The translations under genes and the position numbers were made by a program. DNA of 64,000 bases, from assembly GCA_035084275.1 (NCBI GenBank), contig CM068759.1:1054001-1118000 (forward strand), given 5' to 3'. The notes beneath the pieces are model-generated. The model had not been told where the DNA came from, made no database searches, and saw nothing but the letters and a program-made list of their open reading frames with translations. The stretch is from Hydrolagus colliei (Eukaryota). Positions 6,080-63,430 of the stretch are shown here, one piece after another (the stretch's first letter is position 1; each line of letters begins with the position of its first letter).

Positions 6080-6301
6080 GTGTCCTGTTCCTGGATGCGA
6101 CGGGCTCGGACACGTGAGCGGGAAGTACGCGTCTCACCGCAGCGCGTCCGGTTGCCCCCTGGCCGCCCGCAGACAGAAGGAAGGGTTCAACAATGGCTCA
6201 GCTTTCACTTGGAAGCCAGTGAAGGGCGACGGGCCGGCCTGTCCGACACCGGGTTGCGACGGCTCAGGGCACGCTAATGGCAGTTTTCTCACACATAGAA
6301 G
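6080..6301 (+). CDS. MYT1: MYT1 exon, two C2HC zinc fingers
   Basis: ttcag|G acceptor, AG|gtacgc donor; CP-x-PGCDG-x-GH twice. Confidence 0.93.
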
Positions 6302-61200: not shown

Positions 61201-63430
61201 AAAAGCATCCAGAAGTAGAGATAAGCCAAGCCGTTTGCCAAATAAGCTGTCTGGGGTCAAACCACAGTCTCGTTAGCCGCCATAAAAGATCTTTTCTTTG
61301 GGAGCCTAAGTGCTTTTGGCTAAAATTTCTCACCTGTAACGCTTTCATTGGTACAAAATGTGAAGCAATTGAGCAGATCTACTTCTCAATGTCTCACTAG
61401 TTAGTCAATTGAAACCCAGGCAAGCAAATCAAGCGTATAATATGGGAGGAAAGTGTCTGGTGACCTGGGATTTGATATATTTTTTTCCAAAAAAAACACG
61501 AACATTTGAGAAAAGGGAAACAAATACAGAAAGTGTAACTGAAGCAGATAAAGGGGCTTCAATGATCAGGATTTGAGTTTGGAAGAATCAAGGAGGTTTT
61601 TGTGGCGCCAAGAGGAGAAATGTAACAGATGCTTAAACTTTGGCTTTAATTTACTATTTCGATTCAGGTTTTGATTTGCTTCAGAGCACGGCCTCTGTTC
61701 ATTTATGGGTAATTCGCTTTATTTGCAAGTACTCACTTTCAGCTAAACCCTTATGCAAAGTTTTACAACATTGTGAGCTCAAAATCAGTAAGCGGGTGGT
61801 GTGGGGGGTTCGGGGGGGAATGATGATACGTGTGAAATTAAAGACTTGATTTGAACACAACACATTAAGTGAATGATTTTAAATGTGACAAACGTCTTAG
61901 TTAGTTCTCTTTCAAATTTATATTTATTTTCAAATGCCAAAGTTGAACACTGAAAATACATAAATACAGTATATATATAATATTCCTTACATTTGAAGAT
62001 AGTGCCTTATCACAGTTTCAAGATGTCTCAAAGCACGTCACATAATATACCGTTAAGTAAATTGACTGTGTAATATCGTGGGCGGATAGTTCTTGTTAAG
62101 ATGCCACAGTTTCATCTTTCCCTCTCTCCTCGTTTCCATTTCCTTTCAGGTGGACAACTCCCCAACGACCGGAGACATACTGTTTTATCGAGCGGTACGT
62201 TGCGAATAGTGAGGGTGGCTGCCCACGATCAGGGCCAGTACGAGTGCCATGCCATCAGCGTGGTGGGGGCAAGACATGTACCCGTACAACTCACCGTTCA
62301 GCCTCTGGGTAGGAGCTAATTAATCATATGAATAATAATACTTATCATCCTTGCATTTGATAAGAGGGACCTTATAATAAATAAATTGGTCATTTCAATC
62401 CACGGCTGTTTGTGGGGGGGGGGGGGGGGAACGCTGCTGTGCGCGATCGGCTGCCGCGTTTCACCCACAAATATGTACAAGTCAACTCACTTTACAGTAT
62501 ATTCTATGAAGCACTTTGAGATGATGTGAAAAGCGCTATATCACAAATGCAAGGGTGATTATTATGATGATTATTATTATTAACTGAACTCATTAAAACT
62601 TCCTGCGCTCTCTCTCTATCTCCAAAACAGTGACACCCGTGTTCATTCACACACCTCATGACGTAACAAGAGAAACGGGACAGGATGTGGAAATCCAATG
62701 CTCCGCGCACGGTGAACCTGAGCCCATCATCACGTGGACCAAGGTAAGGATTGTTCCTCAGCGAAGAACATGTGTCTCTTGTTTCCTAAGGTACGAGCTT
62801 CGCCACACTGCAACCTTGTGGGAGTCACTCCTACAGCTTCCCCAACCCTTGTGTCAAAAACCACGGAGGCCTAAAGGATAGCGTATTTTCGGGTCAGCGT
62901 AGGAACGGGTACAGGGGTGAAGGGCAGGTAATTGGAGTTGAAGTCCAGATCAGCCGTGGTCTTATAGAATGGCACAACATGTATATGCTCTCCGCGCTCC
63001 GCAGGAAGGAATTTTACCTGTCTCTCTTTCTCTCTCTCTCTCTCTCTGTCTCTCTCTGTCATTTTGAAACAAGCAAAAGAATGGGGGATTATGAGAAAGA
63101 AGTTGATTGGGACATAGTTCAGTCCTGTTCCCACACTGCCTTGTGCCAGAGCTAAAACCTGCGATAATAATAATAATAAATAATCCTTGCATTTCATATT
63201 CTTATGATTATTTTGTTTAATACTATGGCTATTACATCAACTTATTCCGTATAACTTTATTCCTTGTAACTAGGACGGGGTGCAAATCACGGACAGTGGC
63301 AAATTCTTGGTCAATCCGGAGGGAAACCTGATTGTTCGAGATGTTGGCGAAGCTGATCAAGGCCGATACGAATGCGTTGCCCGTAACCCATTTGGTTTTG
63401 TCTCCAATAACATGCTGTTAACCGTCACCG
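28129..63430 (+). CDS. Peroxidasin-family protein (PXDN/PXDNL-like), exons 1-14: signal peptide, LRRNT, 5 LRR, LRRCT, 4 Ig; peroxidase domain expected beyond window
   Basis: 14 exons (164,72,72,72,72,72,170,118,170,273,117,159,113,157 nt) join in frame with GT-AG junctions; exons 2-14 match the recalled PXDN exon-size pattern; [38 protein letters not shown] and PRITSEPQD are peroxidasin signatures. Exact paralog unresolved. Confidence 0.92.
29230..29505 (+). mobile_element. Old Deu-domain SINE (SacSINE1/AmnSINE1-like core)
   Basis: CCGTCTTTCGGACGAGATGTAAAA...AAAGATCCCATGGCAC.TATT matches the recalled Deu-domain consensus, followed by the shared 3' region and tail. Confidence 0.7.
29505..29790 (-). 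mobile_element. tRNA-derived SINE, tail-to-tail with the Deu SINE
   Basis: Family consensus on the - strand. Confidence 0.82.
30230..30365. mobile_element. Probable Penelope-like element terminal fragment
   Basis: AAAACTGCAGATG.TGG.AAATCTGAAAT...AAAATGCTGGAA...CAGC.GGTCA.GGCAGCAT resembles a repeat recalled from cartilaginous fish; not verified. Confidence 0.45.
30680..31040 (+). mobile_element. tRNA-derived SINE, longer diverged variant
   Basis: Head, extra internal segment (CTCTGTTTACCTAGC...TAGGAACCC), core and tail. Confidence 0.75.
35218..35492 (+). mobile_element. tRNA-derived SINE
   Basis: B box through (TTA)n tail. Confidence 0.85.
38010..38294 (-). mobile_element. tRNA-derived SINE
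   Basis: Head to tail on the - strand. Confidence 0.85.
40490..40952. mobile_element. Nested/rearranged SINE pieces (+ head 40490-40570, - body 40575-40810, + tail 40845-40952)
   Basis: Orientation switches read from the family consensus. Confidence 0.7.
43100..43312 (+). mobile_element. CR1 3' end fragment (second subfamily)
   Basis: TGGAATTCTCTACCCC...GATAGATTT...GATCAGCCATGATCTTATTGAATGGC...GAATGGCCTACTC; related piece at ~62915-62975. Confidence 0.7.
43518..43589 (+). CDS. Peroxidasin-like exon 2 (LRR)
   Basis: 72 nt, [24 protein letters not shown]. Confidence 0.92.
44715..45058 (-). mobile_element. Full-length tRNA-derived SINE with internal (CA)n
   Basis: GGAGCTCCTGTAGCTCAG head, B box, (CA)n, core and tail. 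Confidence 0.88.
47296..47880 (+). mobile_element. 5'-truncated CR1 LINE (ORF2 C-terminus plus 3' UTR)
   Basis: [21 protein letters not shown]...[11 protein letters not shown]...[18 protein letters not shown]...[14 protein letters not shown]; ends in ATTCTATG-type terminal repeat at 47858-47879. Confidence 0.92.
50086..50400 (+). mobile_element. Full-length tRNA-derived SINE
   Basis: Head to tail family consensus. Confidence 0.85.
51200..51865. mobile_element. Head-to-head SINE pair (- 51200-51360; + 51382-51865 containing gap 51465-51660)
   Basis: Family consensus in both orientations. Confidence 0.78.
52365..52585 (+). mobile_element. tRNA-derived SINE lacking tail
   Basis: Head and core sequence. 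Confidence 0.8.
52986..53057 (+). CDS. Peroxidasin-like exon 3 (LRR)
   Basis: 72 nt, [24 protein letters not shown]. Confidence 0.92.
53665..53736 (+). CDS. Peroxidasin-like exon 4 (LRR)
   Basis: 72 nt, [24 protein letters not shown]. Confidence 0.92.
54154..54225 (+). CDS. Peroxidasin-like exon 5 (LRR)
   Basis: 72 nt, [24 protein letters not shown]. Confidence 0.92.
54757..54828 (+). CDS. Peroxidasin-like exon 6 (LRR)
   Basis: 72 nt, [24 protein letters not shown]. Confidence 0.92.
54838..55112 (+). mobile_element. tRNA-derived SINE with expanded (CA)n and internal deletion
   Basis: Head, (CA)n and tail. Confidence 0.8.
55350..55519 (+). CDS. Peroxidasin-like exon 7 (LRRCT)
   Basis: 170 nt, [16 protein letters not shown]...EFNC. 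Confidence 0.92.
56038..56155 (+). CDS. Peroxidasin-like exon 8 (Ig1 first half)
   Basis: 118 nt, [39 protein letters not shown]. Confidence 0.92.
56226..57160. mobile_element. Three SINEs in intron 8 (+ 56226-56410, - 56430-56700, - 56825-57160)
   Basis: Family consensus; the last copy is full length. Confidence 0.82.
57377..57546 (+). CDS. Peroxidasin-like exon 9 (Ig1 second half)
   Basis: 170 nt, ...[26 protein letters not shown]... Confidence 0.92.
58104..58376 (+). CDS. Peroxidasin-like exon 10 (Ig2)
   Basis: 273 nt, [23 protein letters not shown]...AHIIVQ. Confidence 0.92.
60079..60380 (+). mobile_element. tRNA-derived SINE with internal (CA)n
   Basis: A box TAGCTCAGTGG, B box GTTCGAATCC, core. 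Confidence 0.86.
60658..60774 (+). CDS. Peroxidasin-like exon 11 (Ig3 first half)
   Basis: 117 nt, [38 protein letters not shown]. Confidence 0.9.
62150..62308 (+). CDS. Peroxidasin-like exon 12 (Ig3 second half)
   Basis: 159 nt, [19 protein letters not shown]...DQGQYEC. Confidence 0.92.
62375..62582 (+). mobile_element. SINE 3' half
   Basis: Core and tail. Confidence 0.8.
62631..62743 (+). CDS. Peroxidasin-like exon 13 (Ig4 first half)
   Basis: 113 nt, [10 protein letters not shown]...[15 protein letters not shown]. Confidence 0.92.
63274..63430 (+). CDS. Peroxidasin-like exon 14 (Ig4 second half)
   Basis: 157 nt, [11 protein letters not shown]...[11 protein letters not shown]...LTVT. 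Confidence 0.92.

What the first reader, a model, noticed from the sequence alone, without database searches (positions are those of the whole stretch)
6080..63430. MYT1-PCMTD2-peroxidasin triplet: candidate third vertebrate peroxidasin ohnolog
Seen: three co-oriented genes; the first two carry MYT1- and PCMTD2-type residues, and the third has an intact peroxidasin frame over 14 exons. Recalled: human has ST18-PCMTD1-PXDNL (8q11), MYT1L-PXDN (2p25) and MYT1-PCMTD2 at the 20q telomere with no peroxidasin following. Inference: this gene is neither PXDN nor PXDNL but the ohnolog of the MYT1 paralogon, kept here and lost in mammals, and automatic annotation would probably mislabel it PXDN or PXDNL. 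Peroxidasin makes collagen IV sulfilimine crosslinks, so an extra copy in a cartilaginous fish is of functional interest.
Basis: partly seen in the sequence, partly recalled or inferred. Interest (0 to 1): 0.75.

Follow-up and report, generated by a model that had tools for sequence, protein, structure and literature searches.

The report
Overlooked third vertebrate peroxidasin gene
This chimaera-like fish carries a third peroxidasin gene, distinct from the two known from humans and shared with sharks, salamanders, reptiles, birds and the echidna, which likely arose in the early vertebrate genome doubling, was likely lost in marsupial and placental mammals, and is predicted to be an active collagen IV cross-linking enzyme.

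Summary
Confirmed. The window holds the 3' end of MYT1, all of PCMTD2 and 14 exons (600 residues, no stop) of a peroxidasin, all on the + strand. In a 57-protein ML tree the peroxidasin falls in neither PXDN nor PXDNL. It joins a third jawed-vertebrate clade (99.9/100), sister to PXDNL; six alternative trees are rejected by AU tests. The neighbours group with MYT1 and PCMTD2, not ST18 or PCMTD1. Elephant shark and four elasmobranchs hold all three peroxidasins on three different contigs. The third copy lies with PCMTD2 in 12 of 12 testable cartilaginous fishes, a newt and birds.

The gene is not a cartilaginous-fish relic: salamanders, lizards, snakes, turtles, crocodilians, birds and echidna keep it. 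So 'lost in mammals' should read 'likely lost in therians'. All 94 third-clade relatives keep the seven heme-site residues; that domain lies beyond the window. All 68 tetrapod rows lack the vWC domain, and three salamanders also lack Ig4. Ten literature searches found no description of the clade; a family review names two vertebrate branches. Verdict: a new, apparently unnamed member of a known family, with activity predicted but untested.

The parts
6080..9829 (+). MYT1, last five coding exons (6080-6301, 6540-6631, 7022-7125, 8083-8226, 9689-9829): two C2HC zinc fingers and the C-terminal region
   Evidence: Open spliced frame of 233 aa. Groups with Amia MYT1 at 99.9/100; placement with ST18 or MYT1L rejected, AU p 1.2e-4 or less.
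17287..18124 (.). Two assembly gaps (17287-17643, 17959-18124) in simple repeats between MYT1 and PCMTD2
   Evidence: N runs in the sequence.
21215..25744 (+). PCMTD2, complete coding sequence (21215-21521, 22479-22581, 23219-23390, 23803-23926, 25365-25744), 362 aa
   Evidence: 97.2% identical to C. milii PCMTD2; PCMTD1/PCMTD2 split 100/100 with the window on the PCMTD2 side. Pfam PCMT and a sub-cutoff SOCS box hit.
25745..28128 (.). PCMTD2 3' end and gap-free spacer, 2.4 kb from the stop codon to the peroxidasin start; AATAAA at 26459 and 26470; SINE copies
   Evidence: Sequence, no N, AATAAA scan.
28129..28292 (+). Third peroxidasin, exon 1: hydrophobic signal-peptide-like start and LRR N-cap
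   Evidence: aligns with the N-termini of all three peroxidasin clades.
43518..55519 (+). Third peroxidasin, exons 2-7 (43518-43589, 52986-53057, 53665-53736, 54154-54225, 54757-54828, 55350-55519): five 72-nt LRR exons and the LRR C-cap
   Evidence: tblastn with orthologs.
56038..63430 (+). Third peroxidasin, exons 8-14 (56038-56155, 57377-57546, 58104-58376, 60658-60774, 62150-62308, 62631-62743, 63274-63430): four Ig domains; the gene runs on beyond the window

Best explanation
The third gene is a peroxidasin of a separate jawed-vertebrate lineage, sister to PXDNL and lying directly after MYT1 and PCMTD2, which likely arose by the second vertebrate genome doubling and is predicted to be a secreted, active heme peroxidase that likely cross-links collagen IV as PXDN does. 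History: the MYT1L-PXDN block is inferred to have split first; the other block then doubled into ST18-PCMTD1-PXDNL and MYT1-PCMTD2-third peroxidasin before chimaeras, sharks and bony vertebrates parted. The three clades, the sister relation and the neighbours are shown; the tie to whole-genome duplication is inferred (about 0.9). Mechanism, inferred from conserved residues in orthologs and from human PXDN: secretion, a disulfide-linked trimer through the two conserved cysteines, convertase cleavage at the basic site behind the peroxidase domain, then oxidation of bromide with H2O2 to HOBr, which forms sulfilimine bonds in collagen IV NC1 hexamers (catalytic activity about 0.9, collagen IV as target about 0.75). 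Tetrapod copies lost the vWC domain, which lies in the piece that cleavage removes from human PXDN, so the mature enzyme would be little changed.
For: Tree of 57 rows x 1403 columns, IQ-TREE LG+F+G4: third clade 99.9/100, PXDNL 100/100, PXDN 100/100, third+PXDNL 99.9/100, window+C. milii third copy 99.2/100. N-terminal and C-terminal halves both recover the three clades (FastTree). AU test, 10000 replicates: 6 of 9 topologies rejected at p 3.9e-5 or less, among them nesting of the cartilaginous-fish copies in PXDN or PXDNL; the 3 kept differ only in where one lamprey gene sits. All three peroxidasins on three different contigs in C. milii, Amblyraja, Heterodontus, Mustelus and Rhincodon. Third copy with PCMTD2 by shared contig length and/or near-consecutive accessions in 12 of 12 cartilaginous fishes with both rows, plus Pleurodeles (consecutive locus tags), Gavia, Falco and Ammospiza. 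PXDNL with PCMTD1 in 12 elasmobranchs; C. milii ST18 and PXDNL have near-consecutive accessions. Fused gene models give order and orientation: PCMTD2 then third copy in a bird and a lizard, third copy then SRMS and PTK6 in a turtle. Q823, D826, H827, R977, E980, H1074, N1158 and C736 present in 94 of 94 third-clade rows, C1315 in 93 of 94 (1 gap), R1336 in 82 of 94. Peroxidase domain 80.5% identical between C. milii and alligator, against 80.0% for PXDNL and 85.4% for PXDN (C. milii-tinamou). Roles of these residues, trimer, cleavage and HOBr chemistry: passages of PMC8533639 and PMC5377774. A preprint section (PMC13734250) finds Myt1 and St18 to be jawed-vertebrate duplicates by microsynteny, with Myt1l separate.
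Against: The peroxidase domain of this very gene is outside the window, so activity rests on relatives. No expression or enzyme data were obtained. The window's own genome is not held, so its PXDN and PXDNL loci were not seen. Synteny is read from contig lengths, accession order and fused models, not from DNA; some species names were cut off in the listings. MYT1 next to PCMTD2 is seen only in this window, across two N gaps. MYT1+ST18 as sisters has only 91/75 in my tree, and the preprint's own tree puts Myt1 basal to Myt1l and St18. The two lamprey genes are not resolved (51.6/69), so the duplications are not dated against the lamprey split. Salamander copies lack Ig4 although PMC5377774 cites four Ig plus peroxidase as the smallest cross-linking unit. 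The R1333 position varies (R in 72 of 94; H or Q in several rays). Absence in therians is absence from listings cut at the best 120 of 230 and of 180 hits.
Confidence: 0.72

Rival explanations
1. It is the third ohnolog and an active peroxidase, but it has moved to another job, such as halogenation of other matrix proteins or antimicrobial oxidant production, and does not cross-link collagen IV in vivo.
For: All 68 tetrapod rows lack vWC and the 9 C-termini printed end in a basic tail; three salamanders also lack Ig4. The gene appears dispensable in therians and was not seen in ray-finned fishes, frogs, caecilians, lungfish or coelacanth. Its sister PXDNL does not cross-link in the human form (PMC8533639).
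Against: LRR, Ig and peroxidase domains are about as conserved as in PXDN. Trimer cysteines and the cleavage-site arginine are kept. The cartilaginous-fish copies have the full PXDN domain set.
Confidence: 0.18
2. The third gene came from a local block duplication in the jawed-vertebrate stem, not from whole-genome duplication.
For: Only three linked families were examined. Lamprey placement is unresolved. No chromosome-scale paralogy test could be run.
Against: Three neighbouring families duplicated together in the same order, and the two blocks lie on different contigs in every species compared. The third copy sits on the smaller contig in most species listed (15 Mb against 126 Mb in C. milii; 14 Mb in chicken), which fits the recalled micro- and macrochromosome pairs of the second doubling.
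Confidence: 0.08
3. The gene is an ordinary PXDN or PXDNL ortholog, a duplicate limited to cartilaginous fish, or a misassembled join.
For: Databases give it the same name as PXDN. No laid contig spans the PCMTD2-peroxidasin stretch.
Against: Every such topology is rejected (AU p 3.9e-5 or less). C. milii has all three genes. The same adjacency occurs in 12 of 12 testable cartilaginous fishes and in tetrapods. The spacer has no gap.
Confidence: 0.02

Closest known systems
PXDN (peroxidasin 1; human 2p25, next to MYT1L as recalled)
   Same: Domain order signal-LRR-4 Ig-peroxidase-vWC in cartilaginous-fish copies; all heme-site residues, trimer cysteines and, in most rows, the cleavage-site arginine.
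   Different: Separate clade; window protein 70.4% identical to C. milii PXDN against 95.4% to the C. milii third copy; lies after PCMTD2; tetrapod copies lack vWC.
PXDNL (peroxidasin 2; human 8q11, with ST18 and PCMTD1)
   Same: Sister clade (99.9/100); same position behind a PCMTD gene; same domain order.
   Different: 72.0% identical to C. milii PXDNL; different contig; keeps Q823 and D826, which human PXDNL has replaced (PMC8533639). PXDNL rows keep vWC (42 of 42), tetrapod third copies do not (0 of 68).
Unnamed ohnologs kept outside therian mammals (e.g. slc26a12, PMC11145369, seen as a search listing only; genes of the kind surveyed in PMC3296468)
   Same: An old paralog present in reptiles, birds and others, missing from human and mouse and therefore without a name.
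   Different: This one belongs to the enzyme family that makes the collagen IV sulfilimine bond, and shows natural domain losses (vWC, Ig4).

Membership tests
[quoted passage not shown] | Signal peptide, LRRs with caps, four Ig domains | tested here: met
   Window model and alignment; Pfam on orthologs. The signal peptide is read from the sequence; no predictor was run.
[quoted passage not shown] | Animal heme peroxidase domain with distal Gln, Asp-His, Arg, Glu and proximal His, Asn | tested here: inconclusive
   Outside the window for this gene; present in 94 of 94 third-clade relatives, C. milii included.
[quoted passage not shown] | C-terminal vWC domain (vertebrate form) | tested here: inconclusive
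   Outside the window. Present in 18 of 26 cartilaginous-fish rows (the 8 without are 7 C. milii UniRef models and 1 short isoform), absent in 68 of 68 tetrapod rows.
[quoted passage not shown] | HOBr production and collagen IV sulfilimine cross-linking | not testable with these tools
   Needs an enzyme assay.
PXDN orthologs | Nests in the PXDN clade | tested here: not met
   AU p 3.9e-5 for nesting and 2.2e-9 for a sister relation.
PXDN orthologs | Neighbour is MYT1L | tested here: not met
   Neighbours are MYT1 and PCMTD2. That PXDN lies beside MYT1L is recalled, not tested.
PXDNL orthologs | Nests in the PXDNL clade | tested here: not met
   Three nesting topologies rejected, AU p 1.6e-5 or less; C. 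milii has its own PXDNL, P0410.
PXDNL orthologs | Neighbours are ST18 and PCMTD1 | tested here: not met
   The PXDNL clade lies with PCMTD1 in 12 elasmobranchs.
Ohnologs of the vertebrate genome duplications | Duplication before the cartilaginous/bony split | tested here: met
   Each of the three clades holds cartilaginous fishes and bony vertebrates.
Ohnologs of the vertebrate genome duplications | Neighbouring families duplicated in parallel on separate chromosomes | tested here: met
   MYT1/ST18, PCMTD2/PCMTD1, third/PXDNL; three families only, chromosomes read from contig lengths.
Ohnologs of the vertebrate genome duplications | Chromosome-scale paralogy on one ancestral linkage group; timing against cyclostomes | not testable with these tools
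   No vertebrate genome held; lamprey placement unresolved.

The most novel reading that the evidence does not exclude
Jawed vertebrates have three peroxidasins, not two, and the third has never been named: an active collagen IV cross-linker that chicken, reptiles, salamanders and monotremes still use in a naturally vWC-less form with a basic tail (and, in salamanders, without Ig4). Therians lost it and simians inactivated PXDNL, so dependence on one cross-linking enzyme is a late mammalian state, and the natural deletions test what vWC and Ig4 are for.
Probability: 0.45. Interest if true: 0.72.

Novelty: new member of a known kind. Interest (0 to 1): 0.58.

Why it matters
The family review read here divides vertebrate peroxidasins into two branches. 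A third gene with an intact predicted active site, in chicken, lizards, turtles, salamanders and sharks, would change how basement-membrane cross-linking is read in those models: knock-downs, probes and orthology calls under the name PXDN may concern the wrong gene or be buffered by a paralog. The tetrapod loss of vWC and the salamander loss of Ig4 are natural deletion mutants for two open structure-function questions about peroxidasin. The block also adds a three-gene example for dating the MYT1/ST18 duplication. Hidden paralogs lost on the way to human are a common kind of finding, which limits the surprise.

Tried and rejected
Own genome: not held, so the window species' PXDN and PXDNL loci were not checked.

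Sequencing runs: no RNA holder listed. Contigs of three runs laid on 9000-28900 match unique pieces such as 21692-25112, 25164-26733 and 28021-28352 with few differences in two runs, but break at repeats. None spans the joins, so this neither proves nor disproves the assembly.

Clade sorting by best BLAST score misplaced several rows and was replaced by a tree of 288 rows; rows under 400 aa were left out. Support labels printed shift on re-rooting; the values used are those read by split. No peroxidasin is listed among the 60 of 63 PDB matches shown; no structure was predicted.

Literature: ten searches found no description of a third vertebrate peroxidasin. PMC3296468 has no mention in its main text, and its supplements could not be read. 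PMC5901865 has none in its main text or 19 supplements. PMC13734250 does not mention PXDN or PCMTD in its text; its synteny figure could show the gene. Three look-ups in the scan's earlier findings returned nothing.
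Full report
Observation. I built the gene models from splice sites and ortholog matches. Three genes lie on the + strand. A MYT-family gene gives five exons (6080-9829), 233 C-terminal residues and two C2HC fingers. A complete PCMTD gene runs 21215-25744 (362 aa). A peroxidasin begins 2.4 kb later and runs over 14 exons (28129-63430; 600 aa, no stop, all introns GT-AG): a signal-like start, five 72-nt LRR exons with caps, and four Ig domains. The peroxidase domain lies past the window. 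The protein is 95.4% identical to C. milii XP_007903412 and the PCMTD 97.2% to C. milii PCMTD2, so the source is inferred to be a holocephalan other than C. milii. Three N gaps exist, none between PCMTD2 and the peroxidasin.

Identity of the peroxidasin. Two protein searches (best 120 of 230 listed; best 120 of 180) and cluster look-ups gave the sample. I chose 57 rows (19 third clade with the window, 17 PXDNL, 18 PXDN, two lamprey, one amphioxus), 1403 columns. IQ-TREE gives PXDN 100/100, PXDNL 100/100 and a third clade 99.9/100 that holds the window protein next to its C. milii match (99.2/100); third and PXDNL are sisters at 99.9/100. The N-terminal 599 and C-terminal 804 columns each recover the three clades. 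Of nine fixed topologies, six are rejected by the AU test at p 3.9e-5 or less: both other rootings of the three clades and four that put the cartilaginous-fish copies inside PXDN or PXDNL. SH does not reject the two other rootings (p about 0.07). The three topologies kept differ only in one lamprey gene. The names PXDN and PXDNL for the clades come from database labels of their mammalian members. A 288-row tree puts 95 rows in the third clade, 42 in PXDNL and 148 in PXDN; rows include isoforms, so they are not species counts.

Neighbours. The PCMTD groups with PCMTD2 across a 100/100 split (28 rows). The MYT gene groups with Amia MYT1 at 99.9/100, and placement with ST18 or MYT1L is rejected (AU p 1.2e-4 or less; 16 of 46 rows, few of them named).

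Synteny, read from contig lengths and accession order. The third copy shares its contig with PCMTD2 in C. milii, Hemitrygon, Amblyraja, Hypanus, two Mobula, Pristis, Heterodontus, Chiloscyllium plagiosum, Mustelus and Narcine, and has a near-consecutive accession in Leucoraja. That is 12 of 12 cartilaginous fishes with both rows; Rhincodon and Heptranchias had no PCMTD2 row. The same holds for Pleurodeles (NDU88_001197 and _001196), Gavia, Falco and Ammospiza. Fused models run PCMTD2 into the third copy in a bird (P0361) and a lizard (P0399), and the third copy into SRMS and PTK6 in a turtle (P0386); that SRMS and PTK6 lie on human 20q13.33 is recalled. PXDNL shares its contig with PCMTD1 in 12 elasmobranchs, and C. 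milii ST18 (XP_007904097) follows its PXDNL (XP_007904092). All three peroxidasins lie on three different contigs in C. milii (99.1, 125.6, 15.2 Mb), Amblyraja, Heterodontus, Mustelus and Rhincodon. Alligator mississippiensis also has all three. Rows were assigned by their 90% cluster, not by a tree. MYT1L beside PXDN was not tested. A preprint (PMC13734250, section on St18 evolution read) reports that the lamprey Myt1 locus is syntenic with both elephant shark Myt1 and St18, and Myt1l only with itself. That fits the peroxidasin tree, though its own protein tree places Myt1 basal.

Distribution. The third clade holds chimaeras, sharks, rays, three salamanders, lizards, snakes, turtles, crocodilians, birds and the echidna, which also has PXDN on another contig. 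No marsupial or placental row fell in it, nor any ray-finned fish, coelacanth, lungfish, frog or caecilian. Because the lists were cut, these are absences from my sample. The therian loss is likely, since therian PXDN and PXDNL rows were plentiful; the others are open.

How it likely works. I numbered sites on macaque PXDN, which matches the human numbers given in PMC8533639 and PMC5377774 (passages read). All 94 third-clade relatives keep Q823, D826, H827, R977, E980, H1074, N1158 and C736. C1315 is in 93, R1336 in 82 and R1333 in 72. H1074 and N1158 were located by motif, following the proximal His and Asn described in PMC3533774. The peroxidase domain is 80.5% identical between C. milii and alligator, close to PXDNL (80.0%) and PXDN (85.4%, against tinamou). 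Those papers show for human PXDN: a disulfide trimer through C736 and C1315, cleavage at R1336 that removes vWC and raises activity, and HOBr-driven sulfilimine bonds in collagen IV. I infer the same for the third enzyme; none of it is shown for this gene. Cartilaginous-fish copies keep vWC (18 of 26 rows; the rest are 7 C. milii UniRef models and one short isoform). No tetrapod copy does (0 of 68), and the nine tetrapod ends printed finish in a basic tail; PXDNL has vWC in 42 of 42 rows and PXDN in 141 of 148. Three salamanders also lack Ig4, which counts against an unchanged cross-linking role there.

Comparison with what is known. Soudi et al. (PMC3533774; parts 1-4 of 5 read, figures not seen) divide vertebrate peroxidasins into two branches. 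Their table lists four Anolis and three turkey sequences, so third-clade proteins may have been in their tree unnamed, folded into Pxd2 as its sister; this is inference. PMC4420034 (passages) adds no third branch. Ten searches of the open library found no description of the clade. Subscription papers, database gene trees and the supplements of PMC3296468 were not seen and could hold it. In the records the gene is mostly 'peroxidasin homolog'; nine bird entries are 'PXDN protein'.

Verdict. A specialist in basement membranes would likely be surprised that chicken has it; the kind of finding, a hidden ohnolog, is familiar. Interest 0.58.

Noticed in passing
PXDNL-clade proteins P0278, P0288, P0290, P0302, P0327: The inactivating PXDNL changes (Q823W/R, D826E, N1158I) occur only in the 5 simian rows. 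The other 28 rows with those columns (sharks, sturgeon, gar, coelacanth, alligator, turtle, marsupials, carnivores, hare, squirrels, hedgehog) keep Gln-Asp-His, so PXDNL may be an active enzyme outside simians.
   Followed up: partly
PXDNL clade, 42 rows: No bird, lizard, snake, amphibian or teleost row fell in PXDNL, while birds and squamates have the third gene. The lists were cut at 120, so this may be sampling; if real, the two sister genes were lost reciprocally.
   Followed up: no
P0111, P0254, P0409: Third-clade peroxidasins of three salamander genomes lack the whole fourth Ig domain at the same place.
   Followed up: partly
P0057 and P0247: Lampetra fluviatilis has two peroxidasins, listed with different contig lengths; neither could be tied to a jawed-vertebrate clade.
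   Followed up: partly
P0056: An Alligator record named 'peroxidasin-like protein' falls in the PXDN clade; names in this family do not track orthology.
   Followed up: yes
window 57377-57546 (exon 9): The window protein has Arg291 and Thr306 where 14 of 15 and 15 of 15 aligned relatives have Met; lineage change or sequence error.
   Followed up: no
window 50088-50159 and seven more (16137, 27370, 30680, 38226, 44986, 56233, 60085): Eight weak Rfam tRNA hits of 30-51 bits. The strongest heads a dispersed repeat with 37 further blastn pieces in the window, several at the other hits; likely a tRNA-derived SINE family, not tRNA genes.
   Followed up: partly
window 47143-47793 (+): A 216-codon open frame in peroxidasin intron 2 that resembles the 3' end of a CR1-type LINE ORF2 (recalled); Pfam gave no hit.
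   Followed up: partly
P0361, P0399, P0386: Public gene models fuse the third peroxidasin with PCMTD2 (bird, lizard) or with SRMS and PTK6 (turtle); annotation artefacts or read-through transcripts, not resolved.
   Followed up: partly
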